In this document: piece by piece, positions 50,227 to 62,926 of the stretch | How positions within the stretch are numbered: the first letter of the stretch is position 1 | Layout: the number at the start of each line of letters is the position of its first letter | Assembly (NCBI GenBank): GCA_003353845.1 | Contig: PIVT01000010.1 | Location: 4,042 to 68,041 of the forward strand | Length of the DNA stretch: 64,000 bases | Reading direction: 5' to 3' | Source: Pseudomonadota bacterium | GTDB lineage: Bacteria; Myxococcota_A; UBA9160; JADFDR01 | The notes under the pieces: model-generated | What the model saw: the letters and a program-made list of their open reading frames with translations, nothing else | Told to the model about the DNA's origin: nothing | Databases searched by the model: none | Made by a program: the position numbers and the translations under genes

Positions 50227-52194
50227 ATGTCAAATCTCGAAAAATTGTTAAGCCCCATAAAAATCGGTTCCATGGAAATCCGTAATCGGTTGGCCATGTC
50301 TCCCATGACCGTTGACACGGCCAACGACAATGAGACGCCGTCCGATCGACAAATTGAGTATTATGCAGAACGAGCCAAGGGTGGGGCGGCTTTGATCCGA
50401 GTCGAAGTGACCACCATCGATCGCGCGCACCGCTACCAGAGGCGCTCTCTAGGCCTGTACCATGACGATCTCATTCCCGGGCACAAGAAGCTTGTCGACG
50501 CCGTTCATGCGCATGGCGCGAAAATACAGCCACAGCTTGCACACACAGGGCCAGAATCCCTGGCGCCATTCTATGAGGGCATGGAACCGCTAGGTGCGTC
50601 GGTGATTCGCACGCAAACCACCAAGCAAGTTTGCCGGGAAGCGACCGTAGAGGAACTCGAGGCTATTATTGAAATGTACGGTGATGCCGCTCGCCGAACC
50701 CAAGAAGCAGGGTACGACGGTCTCGAACTTCATGCCGCACATAGTTATATGCTCTTGGGTTCCTTCTTGTCGCCCCTGCGAAACTTCCGTCAGGATGAAT
50801 ACGCCGGTCATAAGTTCGAAGGTCGAGCCAAGCTCTTACTTCAGGTGATCGAGAAGGTGCGTAAAACGGTAGGACCGGATTTCCCCATTACGCTTCGGGT
50901 GTCGGGCTTTGAAAAAGAGGCAGGAGGTCGTGAAGTCAACGACACGCAGCGCCTTGCACCGCTTCTGGTTGCGGCAGGTGTGGATTGCTTTGACGTGAGT
51001 GGCGGTGTGGGAGATGCCAATATCACGCAAATTATTACGGGAGCCGAATACGGACCAGGGTATAACCTGGGAGCTGCCATTGCCATCAAGCAGGTGGTGG
51101 ATGTCCCGGTCATGGTTGTGGGTCAGAACATGGATCCCGCTTTTGCGGAGTCCATCTTGCAGGACGGAAAAGTCGATGTCATTGCCATGGGTCGTGCGCT
51201 ACTCGCGGATCCCGAACTGCCGATGAAAGCGAGCCAGGGCAACTTGGCTGGAATCAACCGCTGTACGCTTTGCCAGGACTGTATCGATTCGATGATGACC
51301 TTGGGTGACGGAGTGAAGTGCGCGGTGAACCCCCGTTGTGGGAACGAAGCGGATTTCCCCGTCGAGCAGGCAAAGACCAAAAAGAAAGTACTCGTGATTG
51401 GTGGAGGCCCTGGTGGGTTGGCGGCCGCGCAGATTGCTTGTGAGAGAGGCCACCAGGTGACGCTGATGGAAAAGCAGAGTGAACTTGGGGGTGCCTTCCG
51501 CTGGGCCTCGACGGTTTTTCCACACAACCAGGTATTCTTGGATTATCTCACGCACCAAGTAGAGTCTCTTCCCATTGAAATCAAATTGGGGCAAGAGGCG
51601 ACGGATGTGTCCATCAAGGAGATTGCTCCAGACGCGATCATTGTCGCGACGGGAGGAAAAATTGATGTACCCCAAATTCCCGGAGGCGATTTGCCTCATG
51701 TGATCAGTGGGTCCCGCATTCAAGAGTTTATCCAAGCTGTGCGTGGGGTGGAGGAAGGCTCGACCTTGAACATCGAAGGTCCGGTGGCCATTATCGGTGC
51801 CAATCTCATCGGCTTGGAACTAGCCGAGTTCATCGCCAGGCGTGGCAAGGATGTGCGGCTGCTTGAACCCAGTCGAAGGTTTGCTGTGCCAGCAGGGAAA
51901 AAGCGTCGTGGGGATCACGCCAAGCGCTTGGACCTACTCGGTGTCAGTGTGAACACGGGAATGGCTATTGAGGAAATTACGACGGAAGGAGTGAAGATTC
52001 GCATCGATGACGGCAGCGAGCATTTGGTGAAAGCCAAATCTGTCTTCGTGATGGGCACGCCCTTGGAAGAGCCACGCTTCCTGGAAAGCGTGCAGGGGGC
52101 CGCGGCAGAAGTCTATGGCATCGGCGATTGCACAGGTTTTGGTCTCTCCAAGAAGGCCGTGGCTGAGGCGATGTCTTCGATTTACAAGCTCTGA
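50227..52194 (+). CDS. OYE-FeS-FAD three-domain oxidoreductase (FadH/BaiCD-BaiH family), copy 2
   Basis: It has IRNRLAMSPMTV, HAAHSYMLLGSFLSPLRNFRQDEYAG, CTLCQDC, VLVIGGGPGGLAAA and VAIIGANLIGLELAE. Confidence 0.85.
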   Translation: MSNLEKLLSPIKIGSMEIRNRLAMSPMTVDTANDNETPSDRQIEYYAERAKGGAALIRVEVTTIDRAHRYQRRSLGLYHDDLIPGHKKLVDAVHAHGAKIQPQLAHTGPESLAPFYEGMEPLGASVIRTQTTKQVCREATVEELEAIIEMYGDAARRTQEAGYDGLELHAAHSYMLLGSFLSPLRNFRQDEYAGHKFEGRAKLLLQVIEKVRKTVGPDFPITLRVSGFEKEAGGREVNDTQRLAPLLVAAGVDCFDVSGGVGDANITQIITGAEYGPGYNLGAAIAIKQVVDVPVMVVGQNMDPAFAESILQDGKVDVIAMGRALLADPELPMKASQGNLAGINRCTLCQDCIDSMMTLGDGVKCAVNPRCGNEADFPVEQAKTKKKVLVIGGGPGGLAAAQIACERGHQVTLMEKQSELGGAFRWASTVFPHNQVFLDYLTHQVESLPIEIKLGQEATDVSIKEIAPDAIIVATGGKIDVPQIPGGDLPHVISGSRIQEFIQAVRGVEEGSTLNIEGPVAIIGANLIGLELAEFIARRGKDVRLLEPSRRFAVPAGKKRRGDHAKRLDLLGVSVNTGMAIEEITTEGVKIRIDDGSEHLVKAKSVFVMGTPLEEPRFLESVQGAAAEVYGIGDCTGFGLSKKAVAEAMSSIYKL

Positions 52195-52241
52195 CTTTTA
52201 CAAGCGCTGACATTTACAAAGCCTGAACCGGGCACATGGAT

Positions 52242-52700
52242 TCAGGCCGCATCTCCATCATCGTTTGACGAAAAGTAGGAGCTCAGCACCTGGGCTAAAC
52301 TGCGACAAATGTCCGTTGTGGATAGGATCCCTACGAGTTTTTCATGCTTGACGACAACGGCACAGCCCACATGGCACTTGGCCATGGCGGTAACGACCTG
52401 GTCTAAAGGTGTATCCATCTCTACGATGAAAGGATCGGGCAGCAAAATATCGCGCGCGCAGATCGTGGCTTTGTCGACCTGGGGCAGGGCGGGGTTGACC
52501 AGTCGGTGGAGGTCGCGCTCAGAGATTAAGCCCATCACACGTCCTCCCTCCTGAACCGGGACGTGACGAATGCCATGCTCTTGCATCAATCGCTCAACGA
52601 AAACCGCGGAATCAGCTGTGCGAACAAAGTGAGGGAAGGGTGTCATGACGCCCCCTACGGCAGGCATGCGTTTGTACTTGCTTAAGTCCATTTTCGTCAT
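52242..52700 (-). CDS. CBS-domain pair protein
   Basis: It has two CBS repeats (..IRHVPVQEGGRVMGLISERDL.. and ..VGCAVVVKHEKLVGILSTTDI..). Confidence 0.8.
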   Translation of the reverse strand: MTKMDLSKYKRMPAVGGVMTPFPHFVRTADSAVFVERLMQEHGIRHVPVQEGGRVMGLISERDLHRLVNPALPQVDKATICARDILLPDPFIVEMDTPLDQVVTAMAKCHVGCAVVVKHEKLVGILSTTDICRSLAQVLSSYFSSNDDGDAA

Positions 52701-52715
52701 TTTGATCCCATTGGC

Positions 52716-52943
52716 TTAGAAACGCGGGGTAATGCCATAATAGAGAATTATCTGGAACACGGCATAGGAAAGAAAGAAGGCCAGAAGGGAAACAAGTGCG
52801 CGGCGCAATCCCTTTTGGCGCGTAAAAAGAGCAGTTGTTCCAGCGACCATCACGGCCGAAAAAATAAACATGTGACTGAAGATGTCTAAGAGGTGTGCAT
52901 CTTCGGGGGAAAGGCTGCTAAGCAGGACGACGTAGGATCCCAT
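52716..52943 (-). CDS. Small two-TM membrane protein (hypothetical)
   Basis: The 75-aa product has two hydrophobic helices. It lies 15 nt upstream of the CBS gene. Confidence 0.3.
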   Translation of the reverse strand: MGSYVVLLSSLSPEDAHLLDIFSHMFIFSAVMVAGTTALFTRQKGLRRALVSLLAFFLSYAVFQIILYYGITPRF

Positions 52944-53069
52944 TCAGTCTTCCAGTTCTTTTGCCGTAGGGCTAGCGACGTGCACTGGGTCATCCCTTTT
53001 TGAGAGGGGTGTCGAATGCGTAGTTTATCGGATACAAGCGATATGACCATGCGCCCTGATTATGACTAG

Positions 53070-54359
53070 ATGGTCCGGCTGGATCTGAAATTTCGCATGT
53101 TCTATCATATGCAGGATGCAGGAGAGCAGATTTTGTCGAAACCTGAAGATTTTGATCCCTTTGATCCTGAGACCATCGTCAATCCCTTTCCTTTCTACGC
53201 CGCCCTTCGCAAACACGCACCGGTCTTTGAAATGCGACGCTGTGGCTACTACTTGGTGACGCGTTTTGCTGATGTACGTGCTGCGGCCCTCGATACACAG
53301 ACCTTCTCTTCAAACCTCGTAGCCATCGTCACCGAAGGTGTCGCCGATGGGCCACAAATACTCGACCTGACCAACTCACCTCGCCCAGCGGATGTATTGG
53401 CCATTGCAGATGCTCCAACGCATACCCGCCAGCGCAAGCTCACCAACAAGGCCTTTTCGTTCCGGCGCGTCGCTAAGCTGGAACCTTTTGTGAAGGGGCT
53501 CATGGATGAACTTTTTACGACCCTGAGAGAAACTTCGGAAGTCGATTGGATGGAGGCTGTGGGTCTGCCTTTTCCAATGCGCATCATTTCAGAACTCGTT
53601 GGCTTTCCTCCTGAAGATGCAGATCGGATTCAACGTTGGTCGGATGATGCCTTGGATTTGCTTTCGGGTATTCAATCCCAGGAGAAACTTGGCAGGAATG
53701 CGCTTAGCGTCATTGAGTTGAGTCGATACCTCGGAATTTTGGTTGTCGCGGCCAAAGCCGACCCGGGCGAGAATGTATTGGGTGACTTGGTTCGAGCAAC
53801 CCAAGGGGATGAAGAGGCATTGAGTGACGAGGAAGTGGTTTCCATCTTGGTGCAGTTGGCTACGGCAGGACAAGAAACCACGGGAAGTCTTATCGCAAGT
53901 GCGGCGATGTATCTGGCGAGGGATCCCGAACTGCAAGAACGGTTACGGGCTGAGCCTCAGCGAATTCCTGACTTCATTGAGGAGGCCGTCCGTCTAGAGT
54001 CCCCTTTCTATGGACATTTTCGACAGACCACGCGTGATACGGAAATTGCTGGAGTGGCATTGCCCGAAGGGGCGCGCGTAATGCTTTGCTGGGCATCGGC
54101 CAATCGTGACGAAGATGAGTTCACTAATCCTGAACAAGTCGATCTCGATCGCAGCAACACTCATCTGGGGTTCGGGTTCGGGCCACATTTGTGCATTGGT
54201 GCTTCACTGGCGCGCCTCGAAGCGCGAGTTGCCTTGGAGACCTTGTTGGCACGCACCAGAGAATTCTCCTTGGCGAGGCCGGAAGAACCTTTGCAATATG
54301 TCGAGAGTCTTTTTCTGCGAAGGCTAAAAGCTTTGCCTTTAAGGCTGACCTATTCCTAA
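53070..54359 (+). CDS. Cytochrome P450
   Basis: It has the heme-thiolate loop FGFGPHLCIGASLAR, the I-helix AGQETTGS and the ExxR motif (EAVRLESP). The start is uncertain, with internal Met candidates at 53097 and 53109. Confidence 0.9.
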   Translation: MVRLDLKFRMFYHMQDAGEQILSKPEDFDPFDPETIVNPFPFYAALRKHAPVFEMRRCGYYLVTRFADVRAAALDTQTFSSNLVAIVTEGVADGPQILDLTNSPRPADVLAIADAPTHTRQRKLTNKAFSFRRVAKLEPFVKGLMDELFTTLRETSEVDWMEAVGLPFPMRIISELVGFPPEDADRIQRWSDDALDLLSGIQSQEKLGRNALSVIELSRYLGILVVAAKADPGENVLGDLVRATQGDEEALSDEEVVSILVQLATAGQETTGSLIASAAMYLARDPELQERLRAEPQRIPDFIEEAVRLESPFYGHFRQTTRDTEIAGVALPEGARVMLCWASANRDEDEFTNPEQVDLDRSNTHLGFGFGPHLCIGASLARLEARVALETLLARTREFSLARPEEPLQYVESLFLRRLKALPLRLTYS

Positions 54360-54608
54360 GCGTGCTTGTTTGAGAAAGTCAACCTGCGTCCATCTTTCAA
54401 GAGAGGCGCCAACCCGGAATGTATTAGCGCGGCTCCTGCCCGATCAAACGCTACCCTTGGGGAGTCCTTCTATCTATATAGCTAGATAGAGAACCTGGCG
54501 GGCCAGCCCCTTGCGGTTAGTTGTCGCTCTTTGAATTTTTAGGTGCTGCGGGGCTTCTACGTGATTTAAATTATCTTTGATGGTGGATCGTGATTTCGAG
54601 GTGAAGTG

Positions 54609-54959
54609 ATGTTGAATGTCACATTCGTGCGAATTGAGGAGGGCGGCATTGAGCGTTTGCAGCAGTGGCTGGCCAAACTCCCCGAGCGAAAATCTGAATT
54701 GAAAGAGAGCTACATCGAGCAAGGAACGCGTCAGGAGCTTTTTTACGTTTTGCAAGGCAGGCGCGGCCCCGTTTTGGCCATGATTACAGAGCTTAAAGAC
54801 GTAGAGAAAGGATGTGTGTCTTTCTTGAAGTCAGAGAACCTGTTGGACATTGAATTTAAGGAACTCATTCAAGAGATTTCCTTGGGCTCACCCGCAAACA
54901 TTGAGACGATCTATGATTCTCTCGATTGTATAAAGCCACTTTCCTTCTTGCCTTCGTGA
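54609..54959 (+). CDS. Hypothetical small protein
   Basis: A GAGGTG RBS precedes the ATG at 54609. I recognised no motif. Confidence 0.35.
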   Translation: MLNVTFVRIEEGGIERLQQWLAKLPERKSELKESYIEQGTRQELFYVLQGRRGPVLAMITELKDVEKGCVSFLKSENLLDIEFKELIQEISLGSPANIETIYDSLDCIKPLSFLPS

Positions 54960-54980
54960 GTAACCCACTTTATTGAAAGC

Positions 54981-56351
54981 CTAGGGGTCAGACGATCGGG
55001 TCGACCCTTCGCCAGTGGTTAGCAACCCATGACGGAACAGGATGGGTCCGCAGAGTTGGTTGATGAAGATGGTGCCGATGAGCACTTCCCGAACGGGCGC
55101 TGCCCAAGAGGTATGGCTAAAGGCCTCACTGATCACCGTAACCAACACCAGAGACACGCCGGCTTGTGAGACCATCCCAAGCCAAAGATATTTTGTCCAG
55201 GAACCTCTTTCTGCAGACAGTCGCACGCCGTAGGCGATGCCTACCCAGGTGGCGGCAAGGCGTACCGCCGCGAGGCAAAGGGATAAATGCCAAAGCGAAG
55301 TAAGCGCTCCCAAGTCGATCTTGGCAGCGGCCAATGCAAAGAAAATGCAATACACGGGCAGGCTGGTGATTTCGACGGCGTGAAACAGGGCCCGACTGCG
55401 TTCTGGCCAGAGATTCTTGAGTAGCAATCCTGAAGAGAGGGCCATGAGCAAGGGCTCAACATGTACTTGTTGGCCTTCGAGGCCGGGGAGTTGAAAGTGG
55501 TGTTCGCCGAGCACCGCCACAAAAAGACACCATCCGCTCAGAAAGATGGGTAGGTGGACCCGAACTTTGGCCACATAGAGTCCCATGACCAAACCGAGGA
55601 TGGCGCCGACGGTCAGGGAGCCAATGAGTTGAATGCCCACGGCCCACATGAAGTCTCCAGAAATCTGGCTATTGCCGAGGAGTCCCTTGCTCACCGCCAT
55701 GACGACGGAAAACATAATGATGAGGACTAGATCCTTTAAGACGGTGATGACGAGTGTGGTTTGGCTGAGTGGGCCAACGGCTTTGTAATCGTTGATCATG
55801 GCGATGGTGACCGCCGGACTCTTGGCAACCATGACGACGGCACACAGCATGGCGACTACGAACACCGATTCTGGTGTCAAGTCAGCGAGGAAGGGTACCC
55901 AAGACCGTGTCAGCCAAATTGCAGCGGCAACGGCCACCATGAGTGTGGCCATGTGTACGAGTAAAATGACGGACACGTTTCGAAAGTGGCTCTTGAGAAA
56001 ATCAATACGTATTTCACCACCCGCGGTCAGGGCAATAAGCGCGATGGCCATGTCGCTTACAAACTGAAGAGGTGGGATTTTTCCGCCCTCCGAACGAAGG
56101 ATCATGCCCTTGTCGACCAGGTCGAGAATCTCTGGTCCCACGATGACGCCCAGGATGAGGTAGCCCGTGATGGCCGGTACCTGAACACGCTCGGCCAACT
56201 TTCCGCTCATCCATCCGCCGAGCAAAAGCAAACCGATGAGCATGACAGCCCGAGTCGGCTGGGCGCTTTCACCCATCATGCTGGGATGGGAAAAATATTT
56301 TACCAAGGTCGCGAGAAGCAGCATGCCCGCCAGACTGAAGAGTTCCTTCAT
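54981..56351 (-). CDS. Cation:proton antiporter (Na_H_Exchanger/CPA family) membrane protein, paralog B
   Basis: It is polytopic. VPAITGYLILGVIVGPEILDL is typical of the CPA N-terminus. Its start overlaps the upstream stop (ATGA at 56348-56351). Confidence 0.75.
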   Translation of the reverse strand: MKELFSLAGMLLLATLVKYFSHPSMMGESAQPTRAVMLIGLLLLGGWMSGKLAERVQVPAITGYLILGVIVGPEILDLVDKGMILRSEGGKIPPLQFVSDMAIALIALTAGGEIRIDFLKSHFRNVSVILLVHMATLMVAVAAAIWLTRSWVPFLADLTPESVFVVAMLCAVVMVAKSPAVTIAMINDYKAVGPLSQTTLVITVLKDLVLIIMFSVVMAVSKGLLGNSQISGDFMWAVGIQLIGSLTVGAILGLVMGLYVAKVRVHLPIFLSGWCLFVAVLGEHHFQLPGLEGQQVHVEPLLMALSSGLLLKNLWPERSRALFHAVEITSLPVYCIFFALAAAKIDLGALTSLWHLSLCLAAVRLAATWVGIAYGVRLSAERGSWTKYLWLGMVSQAGVSLVLVTVISEAFSHTSWAAPVREVLIGTIFINQLCGPILFRHGLLTTGEGSTRSSDP

Positions 56352-57661
56352 GCGCCAACCCCCTGCCCAGGCAGTTTTGAGAGAGGCGGTTTTGAGACAG
56401 GCGGTTTAGAGCCATGCGTTTTCGAGAAGTGAATGTCTTGATACTCCTTGGTCAGAATCAATGAACTTAAATCCGAAATGAAACCGACAACGATGAGTAC
56501 CATGAGGAGTTGGGATGCGAGAACCGGCGAAGCCTCAGCACGTCCCAAGGTGGAAATGGTATAACCAGCAGCAATGGCAATAGAGACAGGGTTGGGTCTC
56601 AGCAAGCCGATAAGGGAGGGGGTAGGGGCCGGGTGGTCGAGTTTTGATCGAAACACTTGCTGAATCAGGCCCGATTTAAGTAGCCCGCGTGTAACCAACA
56701 AGAAAACGATGAGTGCCAGGGCCAGTTTTGGCTCAGCCAGCAAAATGGAAGGGTCAGCCATGAGTCCGATGGCCAGCATCAAGATCATGGCCATGGGTTG
56801 TTCACCGTCGATGATCACCCGCTTTAGACGCGCAAGGGAAATTTTGGGTAGGTTGACCAGGACGGCGCCCAGCAGCATGGCGACAAAGAGGGGCAGCTGG
56901 TCCATCAGCGTTGCGGCACCCGCCGTAAAACAAATCATCCCCAATAAGACAACAAGAAATTGGCCTTTGTCCTGCTCTGTCATCTTGAAGATCCAAGGCC
57001 CTGCAAATCCCACAGCCACTGCAATCAGGATCGGTGCGAAAACTCCCAGGCTTAGTTGGGAGAAGGAAATGGCATAGAACGGTTCTCCGCCCGGAGTGAC
57101 TCGGAAGGCGTTGATTAGCAGCGTGTACAAAACCACCATGAGGATCGATCCCATTCCCGCACCTCCGCGAATGAGAAGGCCTGTTTGCATGCGAATGGCC
57201 GGGTTGGCTCTTAAGCTGCGCAATTCCGGTGACCAGCTAATGGAACAAATGCCTAGCAACAGCGAGTGGGGAAGAACGCTCCACGCAGATTCGTGAAGAA
57301 TCCACATGAATACGGTCATTGCGATGGAGGTTGTGAGAATGAGGCTGAGACAGGCGTCCAAGAGGGCGATGCTGAGAATCCAGTGAGGGACCACCTTGGG
57401 TAGGCGCCGGTCCACTTGGAAGCCGATGATCAGTCCAATCCACCCCAGGCAGAAAATAACCAGTGGATGATGCAACGCGATTTGACTGGACTCGATGACA
57501 CCCGTGCCATGTGGGCCAAGTAGAATTCCGATGCCAATCAGGAGCCAGCCTCCAGAGAAGAGCGTGGCACCGGTGGGTCTTCGGCGAAAGGCCCAGAACT
57601 TCCTGCTGGAAGCCATGAGCGCCAGGATCAGGAGGATGGAGAGTGCTAGGAGTATTCGCAT
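56348..57661 (-). CDS. Cation:proton antiporter-like membrane protein, paralog A
   Basis: It is polytopic, with LLIGIGILLGPHGTGVI. The start is moved to MRILLALSILL (57661); the ORF track gives 57730. Confidence 0.65.
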   Translation of the reverse strand: MRILLALSILLILALMASSRKFWAFRRRPTGATLFSGGWLLIGIGILLGPHGTGVIESSQIALHHPLVIFCLGWIGLIIGFQVDRRLPKVVPHWILSIALLDACLSLILTTSIAMTVFMWILHESAWSVLPHSLLLGICSISWSPELRSLRANPAIRMQTGLLIRGGAGMGSILMVVLYTLLINAFRVTPGGEPFYAISFSQLSLGVFAPILIAVAVGFAGPWIFKMTEQDKGQFLVVLLGMICFTAGAATLMDQLPLFVAMLLGAVLVNLPKISLARLKRVIIDGEQPMAMILMLAIGLMADPSILLAEPKLALALIVFLLVTRGLLKSGLIQQVFRSKLDHPAPTPSLIGLLRPNPVSIAIAAGYTISTLGRAEASPVLASQLLMVLIVVGFISDLSSLILTKEYQDIHFSKTHGSKPPVSKPPLSKLPGQGVGA

Positions 57662-57684
57662 GAGTTTTGACTCCAGCCAGTGGC

Positions 57685-58032
57685 TTAGCTGCGAATCCCA
57701 CGAAACTCTTCGATGGGCAGGGTAAAGCAAATCACGGAGTGTGCTTCCTCTTGGGTGCCGACCAATTCATCGATGAGATCAAAAACAGGTTGAATAATGG
57801 ACTGCGGCATGGCAGAGAGGATCATACGACTGCCGCTGGTTTCAGGAAACAGGCCCGCGAGCCCGGCGAAAATCGGCATGTCTTGGCGCACAATCTGGCC
57901 CATGCCCCTTGTTTCAACCACGGTGGCACCGCGTACTCCAATTTCGAGGAAGCCGGTGATGAGGGCATCGGTTAAATCCGGGTCATCGACGATGATGACG
58001 CATAGCTTGTTGAGTTCCTCGGCGTCAGGCAT
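57685..58032 (-). CDS. PII-like small regulatory protein
   Basis: The 115-aa product reads MPDAEELNKLCVIIVDDPDLTDALITGFLEIGVRGATVVETRGMGQ..., a beta-alpha-beta ferredoxin-like pattern with a T-loop-like segment. Only the 3' third of ORF-track entry 57685..58404 is used. The ATG overlaps the EIIA stop by 8 nt. Confidence 0.5.
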   Translation of the reverse strand: MPDAEELNKLCVIIVDDPDLTDALITGFLEIGVRGATVVETRGMGQIVRQDMPIFAGLAGLFPETSGSRMILSAMPQSIIQPVFDLIDELVGTQEEAHSVICFTLPIEEFRGIRS

Positions 58033-58489
58033 GGTTACCGTCCTCGCTCTGGATGCGCTCGAACAAGTCATCTCCGTCTGTGGCGCAGCGTAGATTGGCG
58101 AGGGCATTCGGTTTCCGGCAAATACGGGCAATGTGCGCCAAGAGGCGAAGGTGGTCCCATTCGCTTCCCGGTGGGCCCAGGAGGAGAAAAAGGATGTTGC
58201 AGGGAGTGTCGTCTGCTTCGCTGAAATTGACGGGTTGCTCCAATAGGCTAACGGCGACGATGGATTGATCGAGTCCTTCAATAACGGTGTGTGGAAAAGC
58301 GACCCCTTCTGGGGTGGCTGTGGATCCGCGGTTTTCGCGTTCGAGTAGAGCCTCGAAAAGATCTGAGGCCTGAACGCCCGAATTCTTGGCCGCAATCTTT
58401 TCACTCAACTCGCGCAGTACATCATCCCGTGAGCTAACATTTTTTAAGATCCAACATAACTCGGGTGAGGTTAAATCTGGAATTCTCAT
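58025..58489 (-). CDS. PTS EIIA type-2 (EIIA-Ntr/PtsN-like) domain protein
   Basis: It has ...ERENRGSTATPEGVAFPHTVIEG... with the phosphorylatable His context (AFPH). Its 154-aa size is typical. Confidence 0.75.
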   Translation of the reverse strand: MRIPDLTSPELCWILKNVSSRDDVLRELSEKIAAKNSGVQASDLFEALLERENRGSTATPEGVAFPHTVIEGLDQSIVAVSLLEQPVNFSEADDTPCNILFLLLGPPGSEWDHLRLLAHIARICRKPNALANLRCATDGDDLFERIQSEDGNHA

Positions 58490-58601
58490 TCAATGTCCTT
58501 CATCGGTTCATGTAAGAAAAGGATTCCCCGGTAGCCCTGAACTAGATGTTACTGTTGGTTAAATTGATCGCAACGTAAGGGCGAAAAGAAGCGCGTAGAG
58601 C

Positions 58602-60620
58602 ATGCTTTGGGCATGGCTCAATAAAAGGGAGACTGTGGAGCAACCAAGGTTCGTCTTGGACATTCTGATCGTATTGCTTTCCGCTGGAGTGGGTGGAGCG
58701 ATCTTTGAAAAGATGCGGCTGCCGGGAGTTATCGGCTTCTTGTTGACAGGGGCCCTGGTGGGTCCCGGTGGATTGCAGTTGATTTCCGACCCTGAACAAG
58801 TTCGCACCTTTGCCGAGTTCGGCGTCGCATTCCTGTTGTTTGAAATTGGAATCGAGTTGCCCCTGGGTGAGCTGCGCCACAGCTTCCGGAAACTGGTTAT
58901 TTCCGGCTTCCTGCAAGTCACGGCCACGCTTGGCATTGCCACAGGGCTTTGTGTTTTTTTGGGGCGGCCGTTAAATACCTCCATCATCATGGGCATGTTG
59001 GTGACCATGTCCAGTACTGCGGTGGTGATGCGAATCCTGAGCCAGCGTGGAGAAGTGGATGCTCCCCATGGTCGGCTGTCCTTGGGGATTCTCCTTTTTC
59101 AAGACCTCTGCATCATCCCATTTCTTTTGGCCGTGCCCCTGTTGGCAGCGGATACTCATGGCTCGGTGGCTTCCCTGGGCCTGGCCTTTGTAAAAGCAAT
59201 TGTGGTGTTGCTGCTCTTTGCCCTGGCTTCGCGTTTTGTCTTGCAGTGGGTGATGAAACAAATCGCACATCTGCGCTCGCCAGATCTGTTTAGTATTTTT
59301 GCCTTTCTCCTGGCCATGGGCTCGGCAGTATTGGCCGAGGAGATCGGGCTCACCCTTGCTGCCGGCGCCTTTGTGGCAGGCCTGGTGTTGAATTCTTCCG
59401 CCTACGGGCATCAACTTTTCGCAGAGATTGTCCCATGGCGCGGTGTGCTCCTGGGCGTCTTCTTTACGACCGTGGGAATGTTGCTGGATGTTCAAGGTGC
59501 GCTGCCCCTTTGGGACGAGATTCTGCTTTTCTTAGGGGGCGTAATCATACTGAAATCCGTGGTGGTGGTTGTTGTCCTGTACGGCGTGATGCGCGAACGG
59601 TTGGGGCAGGCCATTCAAACGGGGTTGACCTTGGCGCAGGCGGGAGAGTTTTCCTTTGTGCTGGCGACGGCTGCGGCTGTGGCTGGTTTGATCGACGAAC
59701 CCACGGAGCAAGTGTTTATTGCGGGCTCAATTCTATCGCTGATTTTTACGCCCGGTTTAATTGCTGCAGGGCCGCGCTTGGCCACCTTTGGAAGCATGCC
59801 CATTGAGAAGATGCGCGAGAAGGTGACAGGAAAGGCCAAACCGCCTCAGCGAGTGGAAGTCAAAGAGAATCATGTGGTGATCATTGGCTACGGAATGGCA
59901 GGACGTACGCTGGGGCAAATTTTAGGTTCCTTGGGGCTGGCGTATCACATCGTCGACAGCAACCCCTATACCGAAGCTAAACTGAGAGACTCTGGAGAGC
60001 CTTTCACGTTCGGGGATGCGACGCGACTCGTGATTCTCAAGGCGGTGGGGGTCGAGCGAGCCAAGGCAGTGGTCATTGCAATCTCCGACCCAATAGCGAC
60101 TCGACGTTGCATTGCGATGATTCGATCGCTGGCCCCCGACGTTCACATCGTGGTACGAACACGCTACGCACGAAACCTTGATCACTTGTTGGAGGACGGA
60201 GCCTCTGAAGTGGTAGCCGAAGAATTCGAGTCCACCATTGACTTGTTCAGTAAGGTGCTGCGCCTATACGAAGTTTCTTCTCAATCCATCGGAGATTTTG
60301 CGCAAGAAATGCGTGCCGAGGGCTATACCTTCTTGCTTGAAGCAAGCGACAGAGCCGTGGATCCCTGGCTCGTCGACTTGTTAAAGGGTGTCTCGACCCA
60401 TTGGATCGAGGTGCCACAAGACTTTGTGGGAGGTCGCTCCATTGCAGAACTTAGCGTGCGCGCAACCACGGGTGTCAATATTGTCGCTGTGCGCCATAAC
60501 GGAAGAATGGTGACCAACCCACCTCCTGAGTATTGCATCGAAGAGGGAGACGAGTTGCTGATTTTGGGGACGGGGGCAGCGGTGGCTAAGTTTCGAGGTC
60601 TCTTAGAAAACGTCCAATAA
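58602..60620 (+). CDS. CPA2 monovalent cation:proton antiporter with C-terminal RCK (TrkA-N + TrkA-C) domains (KefB/YbaL-like)
   Basis: The membrane domain has LPGVIGFLLTGALVGPGGL. It is followed by VVIIGYGMAGRTLGQIL (Rossmann GxGxxG) and a C-terminal GRSIAELSVRATTGVNIVAVRHNGRMV...GDELLILG. Confidence 0.85.
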   Translation: MLWAWLNKRETVEQPRFVLDILIVLLSAGVGGAIFEKMRLPGVIGFLLTGALVGPGGLQLISDPEQVRTFAEFGVAFLLFEIGIELPLGELRHSFRKLVISGFLQVTATLGIATGLCVFLGRPLNTSIIMGMLVTMSSTAVVMRILSQRGEVDAPHGRLSLGILLFQDLCIIPFLLAVPLLAADTHGSVASLGLAFVKAIVVLLLFALASRFVLQWVMKQIAHLRSPDLFSIFAFLLAMGSAVLAEEIGLTLAAGAFVAGLVLNSSAYGHQLFAEIVPWRGVLLGVFFTTVGMLLDVQGALPLWDEILLFLGGVIILKSVVVVVVLYGVMRERLGQAIQTGLTLAQAGEFSFVLATAAAVAGLIDEPTEQVFIAGSILSLIFTPGLIAAGPRLATFGSMPIEKMREKVTGKAKPPQRVEVKENHVVIIGYGMAGRTLGQILGSLGLAYHIVDSNPYTEAKLRDSGEPFTFGDATRLVILKAVGVERAKAVVIAISDPIATRRCIAMIRSLAPDVHIVVRTRYARNLDHLLEDGASEVVAEEFESTIDLFSKVLRLYEVSSQSIGDFAQEMRAEGYTFLLEASDRAVDPWLVDLLKGVSTHWIEVPQDFVGGRSIAELSVRATTGVNIVAVRHNGRMVTNPPPEYCIEEGDELLILGTGAAVAKFRGLLENVQ

Positions 60621-60663
60621 GTCGGGTATGGTAAGGTGATTCTCTTAGCCTTCGGAACCCTCG

Positions 60664-62193
60664 ATGCCCCAGTTTGTTCAAGTCACCCTTGCACCAAGTA
60701 ACCAGACGATTCAGGTTCCCTACGGTGCTGATCTGAAGGAAGTGTTGCATCGGTTTGGTGTCGAATTTCCCTGTGGTGGACGAGGGAGGTGTGGGGCCTG
60801 TCGCATCAAGGTGATTCAGGGGGTGCTGCCACTGTCGCAGGCCTGTGCCAGTATCTTGTCCAAAGAAGAAATCGATGCGGGTTGGCGTTTCGCCTGTCGA
60901 CATCGAGCAGAGCAAGATATTACTTTCGAACTCGGGCAGCGCGAAGCCCCGGTGTTGACCGAGCACGGTGCCTTTCATGTGGAGGCTCGGGACGGGACGG
61001 CGGTTGTCATCGACCTCGGCACGACAACTCTTGTGGCGCAGTTGCTCGATCTTCAATCGGGCCACGTCCTCGCGGTGGAGACCGCGCTCAACCCCCAGGC
61101 GGTGCATGGCGCCGATTTGATGACGCGTGTTGACTATGGCCTGCGCGCGTCCGGTCGGGAGCAGCTTACGCAAAGCATACGCGAGAAACTTGGCGAGTTG
61201 ATTCACGGACTGATTGCGCTTGCGCCTTCCACAATGGATCCGCCTGGAAGTGTGTTGCTAGCGGGCAACACTGTGATGCACCATTTGTTCTGCGGACTTG
61301 ACCTGAGCCCCTTGTCGCAGCCTCCTTTTGAAAGCTCGCAACTCGCAGCTCGACAATTTACTGCTCGGGAATTGGGCTGGGAACTTCCATATGATCCCGA
61401 GGTGGCGTTTCTTCCTTGTCTCGGAGGGTTTGTCGGCAGCGATATTCTGGCGGGCATTCTCGCTACGCAGATGCATGACAGTGAGGAATTGATCGGTTTC
61501 GTCGATTTGGGGACCAATGGGGAAATCGCCATTGGGAATCGACATGGCATCTTTTGTACCTCTACGGCGGCGGGCCCGGCCTTTGAAGCGGGAGGCATCG
61601 AAATGGGTATGCGCGCCGCCACTGGCGCTATTGTCGAAGTCGAAAAGGATCAAGAGAAGGAAGTCTTGTGTCACGTGCTCGGAGGAGGTCAGGCGCAAGG
61701 GGTTTGCGGTAGTGGTCTTGTCGACGCCGTCGCCACGGGCTTGGACCTGGGATTCATCAGCCCCAGCGGTCGCTTGCGCAACGACCATCGGCCCTTTCAC
61801 TTAAAGGATGCCGTTTCCATTACTCAACATGATATTCGGCAGCTGCAACTCGCCAAGGGAGCCATTGCGGCGGGGATTTCAATTTTGCTCAAAGAAGCCA
61901 ACGCAGGGCCTTCCGATCTCAGTGCCTTTTATCTGGCTGGCGCCTTTGGAAACTATGTGAAAAGTGAAAGTGCGAGAAGAGTGGGCTTGCTCCCATTTTC
62001 ACAGGAGCAGATTCAATCTGCTGGAAATACATCATTGCATGGATTGAAAACCGTGATCTTCTCCGAAACACGTCCTGATTTCGATCCAGTGCTGGAAAAA
62101 GTTCGGCATGTCTCGCTGGCCAGTGACGGAGAGTTTCAAGAGACCTTTATTAAAAAGACATCCTTTCCGGAAAACGAGAGGCTAAAGGACTGA
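60664..62193 (+). CDS. RACo-type reductive activator of corrinoid proteins (2Fe-2S ferredoxin domain + ASKHA ATPase)
   Basis: It has the N-terminal FPCGGRGRCGACRIKV...WRFACRH (plant-type 2Fe-2S). ASKHA phosphate motifs VVIDLGTTTLVAQLLD and GFVDLGTNGEIAIG follow. Confidence 0.8.
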   Translation: MPQFVQVTLAPSNQTIQVPYGADLKEVLHRFGVEFPCGGRGRCGACRIKVIQGVLPLSQACASILSKEEIDAGWRFACRHRAEQDITFELGQREAPVLTEHGAFHVEARDGTAVVIDLGTTTLVAQLLDLQSGHVLAVETALNPQAVHGADLMTRVDYGLRASGREQLTQSIREKLGELIHGLIALAPSTMDPPGSVLLAGNTVMHHLFCGLDLSPLSQPPFESSQLAARQFTARELGWELPYDPEVAFLPCLGGFVGSDILAGILATQMHDSEELIGFVDLGTNGEIAIGNRHGIFCTSTAAGPAFEAGGIEMGMRAATGAIVEVEKDQEKEVLCHVLGGGQAQGVCGSGLVDAVATGLDLGFISPSGRLRNDHRPFHLKDAVSITQHDIRQLQLAKGAIAAGISILLKEANAGPSDLSAFYLAGAFGNYVKSESARRVGLLPFSQEQIQSAGNTSLHGLKTVIFSETRPDFDPVLEKVRHVSLASDGEFQETFIKKTSFPENERLKD

Positions 62194-62278
62194 GGGATCG
62201 CAGCTTTCTCGATTGCTCTGGAGGCACTCTGAAATTAAACTAGAGTCATAGGCTGAGAAGAGAAGCTGGGGAGATTCG

Positions 62279-62926
62279 ATGTCAGCGCAAGAAATGGAGA
62301 AACTCAAAGAGGCTTTGCTCGATCTCAACAAAGCTGGCGTGTTGGAAGTGGTGAGCGCTACGGCCACTACGGCGGACCTCCAAGCAGCCAAGCTGGCAGT
62401 GGAAGCCATCGCAGGCGCTTTGCAAGTGGTTGGAAAGCGCTTCCAGGAGGGGGAGTGGTTTCTGGACGAACTCGTGTATTCGGGTGAGATTGCCAAACAG
62501 GCCATGGAGAAACTTTCACCGATTTTGTGTGATGAAACGCAGCCAACTCAAGGCTGTGTGGTGATCGGGACGGTCTTCGGGGATCTCCATGATTTGGGCA
62601 AGGATATTTTTATTAATTTCGCGACGAGTGCCGGTTTTAAAGTGATTGACTTGGGTGTCAATGTTTCGGTGGAAGCCTTTACCAAGGCAGTCCTGGAGCA
62701 TCAGCCGGTGGCGTTAGGGATTTCCTGCCTGCTCACCCCGGCTGCCGGTGGCATTCCACAGGTCATTCAAGACCTCGTTGAGAAAGGGGTTCGTGAGTCG
62801 CTAAAAATCATCGTTGGTGGCGCCGCACTTACAGAGAAGTTTTCACTCGAAGTGGGGGCGGATGCTTTTGCGCCTGACGCGGTTACGGGAACGGACATTA
62901 TTCGCGCTTGGAGTGAAGGACAGTGA
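62279..62926 (+). CDS. Cobalamin-binding corrinoid protein (MtaC/MtbC/MttC-like)
   Basis: It has a helical cap domain, then a B12-binding Rossmann domain with the DxHxxG motif (GDLHDLGKD), SxL (ISCLL) and GG (IIVGGAAL). Confidence 0.85.
   Translation: MSAQEMEKLKEALLDLNKAGVLEVVSATATTADLQAAKLAVEAIAGALQVVGKRFQEGEWFLDELVYSGEIAKQAMEKLSPILCDETQPTQGCVVIGTVFGDLHDLGKDIFINFATSAGFKVIDLGVNVSVEAFTKAVLEHQPVALGISCLLTPAAGGIPQVIQDLVEKGVRESLKIIVGGAALTEKFSLEVGADAFAPDAVTGTDIIRAWSEGQ

What the first reader, a model, noticed from the sequence alone, without database searches (positions are those of the whole stretch)
54981..60620. EIIA(Ntr)-like and PII-like regulators translationally coupled to a pair of CPA antiporter paralogs, divergent from a KefB/RCK antiporter
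Seen:
- The minus-strand operon is an EIIA type-2 protein (GVAFPH His context), a 115-aa PII-like protein, CPA paralog A and CPA paralog B.
- The PII-like ATG overlaps the EIIA stop (ATGCCTGA). CPA paralog B starts within an ATGA overlap at 56348-56351.
- 112 bp away, on the opposite strand, is a CPA2 antiporter with its own TrkA-N/TrkA-C gating domains.

Known:
- EIIA-Ntr (PtsN) modulates K+ transport (TrkA, KdpD) according to its phosphorylation state.
- PII-like proteins such as SbtB gate transporters in response to adenine nucleotides.

Inference:
- This is a cation/proton exchanger, possibly heteromeric from two CPA paralogs, under dual control by PTS-Ntr phosphorylation and a nucleotide-sensing PII-like protein.
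- I am not aware of a characterised CPA system with this regulator pair.
- The long ORF-track entry 57685..58404 hides the real small PII-like gene.
Basis: partly seen in the sequence, partly recalled or inferred. Interest (0 to 1): 0.55.

Follow-up and report, generated by a model that had tools for sequence, protein, structure and literature searches.

The report
EIIA and PII-like regulators with antiporter pair
A four-gene operon conserved in Phycisphaerae bacteria joins a phosphotransferase-type sensor (EIIA) and a PII-like signal protein to two related ion-exchanger membrane proteins, one of which has lost its ion-binding residue, and this looks like an undescribed way of switching an ion/proton exchanger on and off.

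Summary
On the minus strand lie an EIIA-2 gene (58025-58489), a 115-aa PII-fold gene (57685-58032), a 437-aa membrane protein I call memA (56348-57661) and a CPA antiporter I call cpaB (54981-56351). The ATGCCTGA and ATGA overlaps are as described.

Main results:
- **Conservation.** The four-gene order recurs in 27 of 50 related genome loci, mostly Phycisphaerae. The 8-nt EIIA/PII overlap is kept in 23 of those 27.
- **memA.** It is a real but very divergent CPA paralog. Pfam and BLASTP find nothing, but profile comparison gives 98.5% probability and the AlphaFold model matches NhaP, KefC and NapA. It lacks the TM5 ion-binding Asp that cpaB keeps.
- **EIIA–PII link.** EIIA and the PII-like domain are fused into one protein in Kiritimatiellia/PVC loci next to a CPA gene. 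Firmicutes and Caldisericota carry a simpler PII-like + single CPA pair.
- **KefB/RCK neighbour.** This divergent gene is not conserved and is incidental.

Best reading, inferred and not shown: cpaB and memA form an asymmetric cation/proton exchanger. The T-loop of the PII-like protein gates it, and EIIA phosphorylation tunes that gate.

The closest precedents are PtsN inhibiting YcgO and SbtB gating SbtA. I rate it a new variant of known kinds, of moderate to high interest.

The parts
58025..58489 (-). EIIA-2 (PtsN-like) regulator, 154 aa; phosphorylatable His67 in GVAFPH and second His113
   Evidence: PF00359 scores 89.8 bits. The best NCBIfam match is PtsN TIGR01419 at 74.7 bits, below its 138.7 cutoff. 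His67 and His113 are invariant in the 29 Phycisphaerae-type orthologs and His67 is also kept in the two fusion proteins.
58025..58032 (-). 8-nt overlap ATGCCTGA: the PII-like start codon lies inside the last codons and stop of EIIA (translational coupling)
   Evidence: Read directly. The same -8 overlap is found in 23 of 27 four-gene loci.
57685..58032 (-). PII-like protein, 115 aa, with a long, nearly invariant T-loop (RGMGQIVRQDMPIFAGLAGLFPETSGS) and a degenerate B-loop
   Evidence: PF00543 scores 24.1 bits against a cutoff of 25. The AlphaFold2 model has pLDDT 74 and a beta-alpha-beta-beta-alpha-beta topology. All top Foldseek hits are PII, PstA, SbtB or CPII. The family alignment is A1.
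56348..57661 (-). memA: divergent CPA-fold paralog, 437 aa, lacking the TM5 ion-binding Asp (Gly171) and with Gln82 in place of the conserved Glu; conserved E146, R148, R165, R325, K329, R355
   Evidence: No Pfam or NCBIfam hit. A profile search reaches PF00999 proteins. The AlphaFold2 model has pLDDT 87.3. Top Foldseek hits are PaNhaP, KefC, MjNhaP1 and NapA. hhalign against the cpaB family gives 98.5% probability, E 2e-15, over 401 columns.
56348..56351 (-). ATGA overlap: memA stop and cpaB start (translational coupling)
   Evidence: Read directly. A -4 overlap was assigned in 12 of 27 loci by my start-picking rule. From the ORF coordinates, a start codon is available at -4 in about 22 of 27.
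54981..56351 (-). cpaB: CPA2-like cation/proton antiporter, 456 aa, with E113, S178-P179, K206-D207, N313, R364 and Q396-A-G motifs intact
   Evidence: PF00999 scores 70.5 bits. hhalign against the window's Kef-type gene gives 97.3% probability. D207 is conserved in 36 of 38 sequences, E113 in 35 of 38, and R364 in 37 of 38.
58490..58601 (.). 112-bp intergenic region upstream of the operon (presumed promoter region, shared with the divergent Kef gene)
   Evidence: Coordinates. No Rfam element and no consensus sigma-70 match here.
58602..60620 (+). Kef-type CPA2 antiporter with TrkA_N and TrkA_C (RCK) domains, 672 aa; a neighbour, NOT part of the conserved module
   Evidence: PF00999 189.5, TrkA_N 69.5 and TrkA_C 46.9 bits. 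KefC and KefB NCBIfam scores are below their cutoffs. No Kef/RCK-type gene was found in any of the 50 loci.

Best explanation
The region is a conserved four-gene operon: EIIA(Ntr-like), PII-like, memA, cpaB.

**Shown**
- The four products belong to the EIIA-2, PII-fold and CPA-fold (twice) families.
- The order and the start/stop overlaps are conserved across Phycisphaerae.
- EIIA keeps its phospho-histidine.
- cpaB keeps the CPA ion-binding residues, and memA has lost them.
- EIIA and the PII-like domain occur fused in other lineages next to a CPA gene.
- A simpler PII-like + CPA pair exists in Firmicutes and Caldisericota.

**Inferred mechanism**
1. cpaB is the transporting protomer of a monovalent cation (K+ or Na+)/H+ exchanger.
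2. CPA proteins work as dimers. Here cpaB pairs with its degenerate paralog memA, made in step with it through the ATGA overlap. This gives an asymmetric dimer with one active and one structural or regulatory protomer.
3. The PII-like protein docks on the cytoplasmic face through its long, invariant, hydrophobic T-loop and gates transport, as GlnK does on AmtB and SbtB on SbtA.
4. EIIA binds the PII-like protein, and its phosphorylation state at His67, set by a PTS-Ntr-type relay encoded elsewhere, decides whether the gate is closed. Ion and pH homeostasis would thereby be tied to carbon/nitrogen status. In E. coli, unphosphorylated PtsN acts similarly, inhibiting the CPA1 exchanger YcgO through YcgO's built-in CorC domain.

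The Kef/RCK gene on the other strand is an unrelated neighbour.
For: - **Family assignments:**
- **memA/cpaB homology:** hhalign 98.5% probability, E 2e-15, 401 columns. A profile search reaches PF00999 proteins.
- **Loss of the TM5 Asp in memA:** G/A/S/C in 26 of 27 sequences. Gln replaces the conserved Glu in 26 of 27. cpaB keeps D207 (36/38) and E113 (35/38).
- **memA is still under selection:** about 32% mean identity across 26 loci, with conserved charged residues, so it is not a pseudogene.
- **Synteny:** 27 of 50 loci have all four genes. The -8 overlap is kept in 23 of 27, and the -4 overlap in at least 12 of 27.
- **An earlier state:** a Myxococcales-labelled MAG (L026) has the four genes with -8/-4/-4 overlaps. 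Its first CPA still passes PF00999 at 59.4 bits and keeps the Asp. This fits duplication followed by degeneration of one copy.
- **EIIA::PII fusions next to a CPA gene:** L044 and L045. Three more fusion clusters, P0108, P0139 and P0197.
- **PII-like + single DD-motif CPA pairs:** L041-43 and L046-50.
- **T-loop conservation:** M52, P53, F55, G57 and L58 are invariant.
- **Precedents:** unphosphorylated PtsN binds and inhibits YcgO through its CorC domain (PMC11808508; bioRxiv 10.64898/2026.08.14.744764). PTS-Ntr genes are reported in Planctomycetales (PMC13104625).
Against: - No interaction, transport activity or ligand has been tested. Every mechanistic step is inferred.
- CPA proteins are dimers and PII proteins are normally trimers, so docking cannot copy the 3:3 symmetry of GlnK-AmtB or SbtB-SbtA.
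- The closest relative with context available (L051, PII 75% identical) has PII-memA-cpaB but no adjacent EIIA. L016 has EIIA-PII with no adjacent CPA. EIIA is therefore not obligatory in cis, nor is the transporter.
- Thirteen Gemmatimonadota relatives of the PII-like protein, with a similar T-loop motif, are not next to any CPA.
- The B-loop nucleotide-binding motif is degenerate, so the PII-like protein may sense no nucleotide at all.
- No HPr, NPr or EI was found in the window or the loci.
- memA's conserved Arg-rich centre (R148, R165, R355) could mean it carries a different substrate rather than being inert.
Confidence: 0.55

Rival explanations
1. There are two independent transporters under common regulation. 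memA and cpaB would each form homodimers. cpaB would exchange cations for protons, and memA, with its Arg-rich centre and no TM5 Asp, would move a different substrate such as an anion. The operon would only co-express them with shared regulators.
For: - memA keeps a full-length, confidently predicted CPA fold.
- It has strongly conserved charged residues at the crossover helices: E146, R148, R165, R355.
- Some loci carry extra cpaB copies downstream, which shows flexible stoichiometry (L004, L010, L012).
Against: - memA never occurs without cpaB in the 27 loci. The stop/start overlap implies matched synthesis.
- Every characterised member of the fold that matched (NhaP, KefC, NapA, NHE) uses the TM5 carboxylate that memA lacks.
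Confidence: 0.2
2. EIIA acts directly on the transporter and the PII-like protein is an independent sensor. As in PtsN-YcgO, EIIA would bind the membrane proteins itself. The PII-like protein would separately report an adenine nucleotide or c-di-AMP signal. This is two parallel inputs rather than an EIIA-to-PII relay.
For: - PtsN binds its targets directly in E. coli (PMC11808508; PMC13104625).
- The G35-A36-T37 and R/K-G-M-G motifs match nucleotide-contacting positions of canonical PII.
- Top fold matches include the c-di-AMP receptor PstA and its relative 3m05.
- L051 works without an adjacent EIIA.
Against: - Recurrent EIIA::PII fusions and the conserved 8-nt overlap point to a physical EIIA-PII unit.
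- The B-loop GDGK motif and the K90 equivalent are missing.
- memA and cpaB have no cytoplasmic domain like the CorC domain that PtsN binds in YcgO (PMC11808508).
Confidence: 0.15
3. The regulators' main target lies elsewhere. EIIA and the PII-like protein would control a cytoplasmic enzyme or a transcription factor, and would merely be co-transcribed with ion transporters as part of a stress regulon.
For: - L016 has EIIA-PII without a CPA.
- Gemmatimonadota homologs sit next to murA and DUF948 genes instead.
- Canonical PII proteins have many soluble targets (general knowledge of the family).
Against: The PII-like gene is directly adjacent to a CPA gene in 37 of 50 loci, across labels spanning Planctomycetota, a Myxococcales-labelled MAG, Kiritimatiellia/PVC, Caldisericota and Firmicutes. 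Gene order and fusion state differ between them, which is hard to explain without a direct functional link.
Confidence: 0.1

Closest known systems
PtsN (EIIA-Ntr) inhibition of the CPA1 K+/H+ antiporter YcgO (CvrA) in E. coli
   Same: - An EIIA-2 family protein with a phosphorylatable His controls a CPA-fold cation/proton exchanger.
- Control passes through a small cytoplasmic module rather than the membrane domain. In YcgO that module is the fused CorC domain (PMC11808508; bioRxiv 10.64898/2026.08.14.744764).
   Different: - The transporter proteins here have no RCK or CorC domain.
- The intermediary would be a separate PII-fold protein, coupled or fused to EIIA.
- The EIIA is encoded in the transporter operon, not next to rpoN, and scores below the PtsN equivalog cutoff.
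- The exchanger is CPA2-like and apparently built from two unlike paralogs.
SbtB-SbtA (PII-like protein gating a bicarbonate transporter) and GlnK-AmtB
   Same: - A small PII-fold protein is encoded beside the transporter it regulates.
- A long T-loop is the likely contact element.
- SbtB structures are among the fold matches.
   Different: - SbtA and AmtB are trimers that match the PII trimer, whereas CPA proteins are dimers.
- The T-loop sequence here (DMPIFAGLAxLFPE) is unrelated.
- The nucleotide-binding B-loop is degenerate.
- No EIIA partner is known for SbtB or GlnK.
Kef systems (KefC/KefF, KefB/KefG) and KhtSTU/AmhMT-type CPA2 antiporters with accessory subunits
   Same: CPA2-type exchangers gated by soluble cytoplasmic regulators. 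KefC structures are top fold matches for memA. The accessory-subunit systems are cited from general knowledge, not tested here.
   Different: Those systems use RCK/KTN domains with glutathione adducts, NAD(H) or c-di-AMP as signals, and homodimeric membrane domains. Here there is no RCK domain, two unlike membrane subunits, and PII-like plus EIIA regulators.
PstA/DarA c-di-AMP receptors (PII-like)
   Same: PII-like fold. 3m05 and PstA 4wk1 have the best E-value and the best TM-score respectively.
   Different: - PstA has a short T-loop and a long B-loop. This protein has the reverse, the canonical PII layout.
- There is no PF06153 hit for the window protein.

Membership tests
PII superfamily (PF00543-like signal proteins) | Ferredoxin-like beta-alpha-beta-beta-alpha-beta fold with a T-loop between beta2 and beta3 | tested here: met
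   The AlphaFold2 model has E8-15, H18-31, E37-40, a loop, E69-76, H77-92 and E100-106. There are 72 PDB matches at E<=1e-3, and the top 50 are all PII, PstA, SbtB or CPII family structures.
PII superfamily (PF00543-like signal proteins) | Pfam PF00543 gathering score | tested here: inconclusive
   The window protein scores 24.1 bits against a cutoff of 25. Relatives L029 (45.7) and L041 (30.3) pass. Several close homologs carry a precomputed PF00543 assignment.
PII superfamily (PF00543-like signal proteins) | B-loop nucleotide-binding motif (T-G-x-x-G-D-G-K-I-F) and basic residues for phosphate binding | tested here: not met
   The aligned segment is QEEAHSVICF, with no Gly pair and no Lys90 equivalent. 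The G-A-T and RGMG motifs and a C-terminal Arg are retained.
PII superfamily (PF00543-like signal proteins) | Homotrimer; binds ATP/ADP, 2-oxoglutarate or another effector | not testable with these tools
   Only a monomer model could be made, and no ligand assay is available.
PTS EIIA-2 / PtsN (EIIA-Ntr) | PF00359 domain with the active-site His | tested here: met
   89.8 bits against a cutoff of 27. His67 in GVAFPH and His113 are invariant in the 29 Phycisphaerae-type orthologs and His67 is also kept in the two fusions.
PTS EIIA-2 / PtsN (EIIA-Ntr) | PtsN equivalog score (TIGR01419 / NF008145) | tested here: not met
   74.7 bits against 138.7, and 64.6 bits against 221. PtsN is the best-scoring model, but FruA-type IIA is close at 70.4 bits.
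PTS EIIA-2 / PtsN (EIIA-Ntr) | Phosphorelay partners (EI-Ntr/PtsP and NPr/PtsO) present; gene linked to rpoN | tested here: inconclusive
   No HPr/NPr homolog in the 64-kb window or in the 50 loci. Whole genomes could not be examined. The gene is in a transporter operon, not an rpoN cluster. PTS-Ntr is reported for Planctomycetales (PMC13104625).
CPA superfamily antiporter (PF00999), cpaB | PF00999 score, TM4/TM11 crossover motifs and the TM5 ion-binding Asp | tested here: met
   70.5 bits against a cutoff of 26.2. S178-P179, K206-D207 and Q396-A-G align with SSTA, QD and QAG of the window's Kef-type protein. D207 is conserved in 36 of 38 sequences. CPA2 subfamily TIGR00932 scores only 45.4 against 238.3.
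CPA superfamily antiporter (PF00999), memA | PF00999 score | tested here: not met
   No hit even at E<=1 for the window protein. Only 3 of 14 family members hit.
CPA superfamily antiporter (PF00999), memA | 13-TM NhaP/NapA/KefC-type fold | tested here: met
   pLDDT 87.3 and pTM 0.88. Top Foldseek hits are PaNhaP 4cz9 (TM 0.65), KefC, MjNhaP1 and NapA. hhalign to cpaB gives 98.5% probability.
CPA superfamily antiporter (PF00999), memA | TM5 carboxylate that binds the cation/proton | tested here: not met
   The aligned position is Gly171. Across 27 sequences it is G13, A6, S5, C2 and D1, and the single Asp is in the L026 outgroup.
Kef-type glutathione-gated K+ efflux system (58602..60620) | CPA2 membrane domain plus a C-terminal RCK (TrkA_N/TrkA_C) domain; KefB/KefC equivalog score | tested here: inconclusive
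   The domain architecture is met. KefC scores 320 bits against 752, and KefB 279 against 804, both below cutoff. It is not part of the conserved module.

The most novel reading that the evidence does not exclude
memA and cpaB form an obligate asymmetric CPA heterodimer. A catalytically dead protomer has been kept as the docking and allosteric platform for a regulatory couple not described before. In that couple the PTS protein EIIA passes its phosphorylation state to a PII-fold protein, and the T-loop of the PII-fold protein plugs or releases the active protomer. This would be the first heteromeric CPA1/CPA2-type exchanger and the first direct wiring of the PTS to the PII superfamily. I found no description of either in the searches I ran.
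Probability: 0.3. Interest if true: 0.78.

Novelty: new variant of a known kind. Interest (0 to 1): 0.6.

Why it matters
**For ion-exchanger biology.** CPA exchangers set cell pH, volume and K+/Na+ balance in all life. How they are switched is known for only a few, through RCK domains, calmodulin-like proteins and, very recently, PtsN on YcgO. This operon suggests a further solution: a free-standing PII-fold adaptor that receives a PTS phosphorylation signal.

**For signalling.** The PTS and the PII family are the two large bacterial signalling families that report carbon/nitrogen status. The EIIA::PII fusion proteins (L044, L045, and the fusion clusters P0108, P0139 and P0197) are the kind of evidence that normally marks a physical partnership. 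A direct link between these two families would interest both fields.

**For transporter evolution.** The pairing of an intact CPA protein with a paralog that has lost its ion site would, if it is a heterodimer, give a natural system for studying how the two protomers of an elevator-type dimer communicate.

**Testability.** The module is compact at four genes and about 3.5 kb. It is conserved in at least 27 species-level genomes, including a complete genome from a named strain (Planctomycetales bacterium ZRK34, L013). It is therefore directly testable.

Tried and rejected
1. **Pairwise BLASTP of memA against cpaB and the Kef gene.** No significant similarity. I did not conclude from this that memA is not a CPA, because profile and fold methods showed homology.
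2. **KefB/RCK gene as part of the system.** Rejected. No Kef/RCK-type gene was found in any of the 50 loci, and the only KefB matches are weak secondary hits on cpaB-type ORFs.
3. **A riboswitch or other RNA element upstream** (for example a c-di-AMP riboswitch, common before K+ transporters). Nothing meaningful in Rfam for 54000-61000. The two hits are eukaryotic or archaeal families far below their gathering scores.
4. **Promoter and terminator consensus scan.** Counts were at or below the shuffled expectation, so it was uninformative.
6. **PII-like Cys102 as a phospho-acceptor for EIIA~P, by analogy with EIIB cysteines.** Rejected. The Cys is conserved only in the closest subgroup. It is Ala, Gly or Val in most of L017-L027 (Cys in L019 and L020) and Met in the fusion proteins.
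7. **Apparent long ORFs spanning memA+cpaB (L004, L007, L026, L030).** These are upstream extensions of the cpaB frame across memA in high-GC DNA, not fusions. This comes from my inspection of the coordinates.
8. **Identifying the source record of the window by exact-protein look-up.** Nothing on record for memA or cpaB. The taxonomy is therefore inferred from relatives.
9. **Literature searches for a PII-like + CPA system, an EIIA-PII fusion, or heteromeric CPA2.** No relevant paper beyond PtsN-YcgO and SbtB-SbtA. The library lacks most subscription journals, so this is not proof of absence.

Full report
**1. What is in the sequence**

ORF listing and direct reading show four co-directional minus-strand genes.

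| Gene | Coordinates | Length | Notes |
|---|---|---|---|
| EIIA | 58025..58489 | 154 aa | GAAGGA upstream of the ATG |
| PII-like | 57685..58032 | 115 aa | ATG sits inside ATGCCTGA, which holds the EIIA stop |
| memA | 56348..57661 | 437 aa | 23 nt after the PII-like stop, GGAG upstream |
| cpaB | 54981..56351 | 456 aa | ATG overlaps the memA stop in ATGA at 56348-56351 |

- The next gene downstream (54606..54959, plus strand) is convergent, so the operon has four genes.
- 112 bp upstream, on the other strand, is a 672-aa protein (58602..60620).
- The listed 239-aa ORF 57685..58404 is the PII-like frame run backwards over the EIIA gene. All 21 homologs begin at the aligned Met.
- The TTG at 57730 is likewise not the memA start. 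A 100%-identical 437-aa protein is in the database, and the family consensus begins MRILL.

**2. Family assignments**

- **EIIA.** PF00359 scores 89.8 bits. PtsN models are the best NCBIfam matches but fall below their cutoffs. His67 (GVAFPH) and His113 are invariant in the 29 Phycisphaerae-type orthologs, and His67 is also kept in the two fusion proteins.
- **PII-like protein.**
  - PF00543 scores 24.1 bits, just under the cutoff of 25.
  - A family profile weakly matches solved PII proteins over its full length.
  - The AlphaFold2 model (pLDDT 74; the T-loop is the low-confidence part) has the beta-alpha-beta-beta-alpha-beta topology.
  - It retrieves only PII-family structures: GlnB/GlnK, PstA, SbtB and CPII.
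  - The G-A-T and R-G-M-G motifs align with nucleotide-contacting positions of canonical PII. The B-loop GDGK motif is missing.
  - The roughly 24-residue T-loop, with core D-M-P-I-F-A-G-L-A-x-L-F-P-E, is the most conserved part of the family.
- **cpaB.** PF00999 scores 70.5 bits. Aligned to the window's own Kef-type protein, it keeps the conserved Glu (E113), the TM4 crossover S-P (for SSTA), the TM5 Asp (K206-D207 for Q-D), R364, and the TM11 Q-A-G.
- **memA.**
  - No Pfam or NCBIfam hit and no pairwise similarity to cpaB or Kef.
  - A profile of its homologs reaches PF00999-annotated proteins at E 1e-19 to 1e-10.
  - hhalign of the memA and cpaB families gives 98.5% probability, E 2e-15, over 401 columns.
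  - The AlphaFold2 model (pLDDT 87.3, pTM 0.88) matches PaNhaP, KefC, MjNhaP1, NapA and NHE structures.
  - The position aligned with cpaB D207 is Gly, Ala, Ser or Cys in 26 of 27 memA sequences. The conserved Glu is Gln in 26 of 27.
  - Conserved charges are E146 and R148 (TM4 crossover), R165 (TM5), R325 and K329, and R355-Q356 (TM11 crossover).
  - memA is therefore a CPA-fold paralog without the canonical ion site. It is conserved, at about 32% mean identity over 26 loci, so it is not a decaying gene.

**3. Conservation**

A scan of one genome per GTDB species returned 50 loci that encode a relative of the PII-like protein. I called ORFs in each and searched them with the five window proteins.

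| Context | Loci | Lineage as labelled |
|---|---|---|
| EIIA - PII-like - memA - cpaB, same order | 27 | Phycisphaerae and other Planctomycetota MAGs, the complete genome of Planctomycetales bacterium ZRK34, and one Myxococcales-labelled MAG (L026) |
| PII-like + one CPA gene with a D-D motif | 8 | Caldisericota and Firmicutes |
| CPA gene followed by a 274-aa EIIA::PII-like fusion | 2 | Kiritimatiellia/PVC (L044, L045) |
| PII-like next to murA and a DUF948 membrane protein, no CPA | 13 | Gemmatimonadota |
| EIIA - PII-like only | 1 | L016 |

- The EIIA/PII-like 8-nt overlap is present in 23 of the 27 four-gene loci. The memA/cpaB 4-nt overlap is present in at least 12. From the ORF coordinates, a start codon is available at that position in about 22.
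- An exhaustive profile search found three more EIIA::PII fusion clusters. It also sized the family: 226 representatives at E<=1e-10, but only 3 at E<=1e-30.
- The closest relative for which I could see context (L051, PII-like 75% identical) has PII-like, memA and cpaB, but no EIIA.
- No Kef/RCK-type gene was found in any locus.
- In L026 the gene at the memA position still passes PF00999 (59.4 bits) and keeps the TM5 Asp. Phycisphaerae memA proteins do neither. This suggests duplication first, then loss of the ion site in one copy.

**4. Mechanism**

The functional linkage of the four genes is well supported. The evidence is conserved order, conserved overlaps, fusion of two of the partners, and independent PII-like + CPA pairing in distant phyla.

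The mechanism itself is inferred.
1. cpaB transports.
2. memA is its degenerate dimer partner.
3. The PII-like T-loop gates the transporter.
4. EIIA phosphorylation modulates the PII-like protein.

The logic follows two characterised systems.
- Unphosphorylated PtsN binds the CorC domain of the CPA1 exchanger YcgO and inhibits K+/H+ antiport (PMC11808508; bioRxiv 10.64898/2026.08.14.744764). Here the transporter proteins have no cytoplasmic domain, and a separate PII-fold protein could fill that role.
- SbtB and GlnK gate SbtA and AmtB through their T-loops (cited in PMC10710835; SbtB structures appear).

Weak points:
- the dimer/trimer symmetry mismatch;
- the absence of EIIA in L051;
- the Gemmatimonadota relatives that have no CPA neighbour;
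- the degenerate nucleotide site;
- my inability to check for EI and NPr in whole genomes.

**5. Novelty**

PTS control of a CPA exchanger and PII-like gating of a transporter are each known. Three features did not turn up in the literature I searched:
- the combination of EIIA and a PII-like protein;
- the EIIA::PII fusions;
- an intact/degenerate CPA paralog pair.

That library lacks most subscription journals.

I file this as a new variant of known kinds, with interest 0.6. Its interpretation needs the corrections listed under the first-reader verdict.

Noticed in passing
L044 7530-8354 and L045 7530-8354 (Kiritimatiellia/PVC MAGs); also proteins P0108, P0139, P0197: EIIA-2 and the PII-like domain are fused in one protein of about 275 aa. 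In L044 and L045 it is encoded immediately after a CPA gene, with a 4-nt overlap. I found no description of an EIIA::PII domain architecture.
   Followed up: partly
L028-L040 (Gemmatimonadota), e.g. L029 7998-8342, 8433-9059, 9438-10403: A sister group of the PII-like protein scores higher on PF00543 (45.7 bits), has a similar P-[IV]-F-A-G T-loop and keeps a PGxGI B-loop. It sits between murA and a DUF948 membrane protein plus a Zn-dependent phospholipase C-like gene, with no CPA nearby. Its target is unknown.
   Followed up: partly
window 58025-58040 and the equivalent site in 23 loci: The EIIA C-terminus is almost always E-D-x-x-H-[A/V/G]-stop. The His and the following residue are dual-coded with the PII-like ATG (CAT GNN TGA). 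This probably explains part of the conservation.
   Followed up: partly
L004 10942-12270, L010 11233-12675, L012 7718-9106: Some Phycisphaerae loci carry an additional cpaB-type gene directly downstream of the four-gene operon.
   Followed up: no
L051 11194-13704: In the closest relative with visible context, the EIIA-less PII-memA-cpaB cluster is followed by feoA-feoA-feoB and a ferritin gene. The upstream neighbours are DUF3604, NMT1-type binding-protein and dCache genes.
   Followed up: no
window 60664-62926: Downstream of the Kef-type gene lie a RACo-type corrinoid reductive activase (Fer2 + RACo middle + ASKHA C-terminal domain, 509 aa) and a B12-binding corrinoid protein (215 aa). These point to a corrinoid-dependent methyltransferase system.
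   Followed up: partly
window 50227-54959: Flanking genes on the other side are an Old-Yellow-Enzyme/FAD-NAD reductase fusion of the 2,4-dienoyl-CoA reductase type (655 aa), a CBS-pair protein (152 aa), a cytochrome P450 (429 aa), and a 117-aa protein weakly similar to DUF6176.
   Followed up: partly
window 54981-56351 (residues K206-D207) compared with L041-L050: cpaB in Phycisphaerae has Lys-Asp where the PII-associated CPA proteins of Firmicutes and Caldisericota have the classical Asp-Asp and the window's Kef-type protein has Gln-Asp. A Lys at this position may change ion/proton stoichiometry.
   Followed up: no
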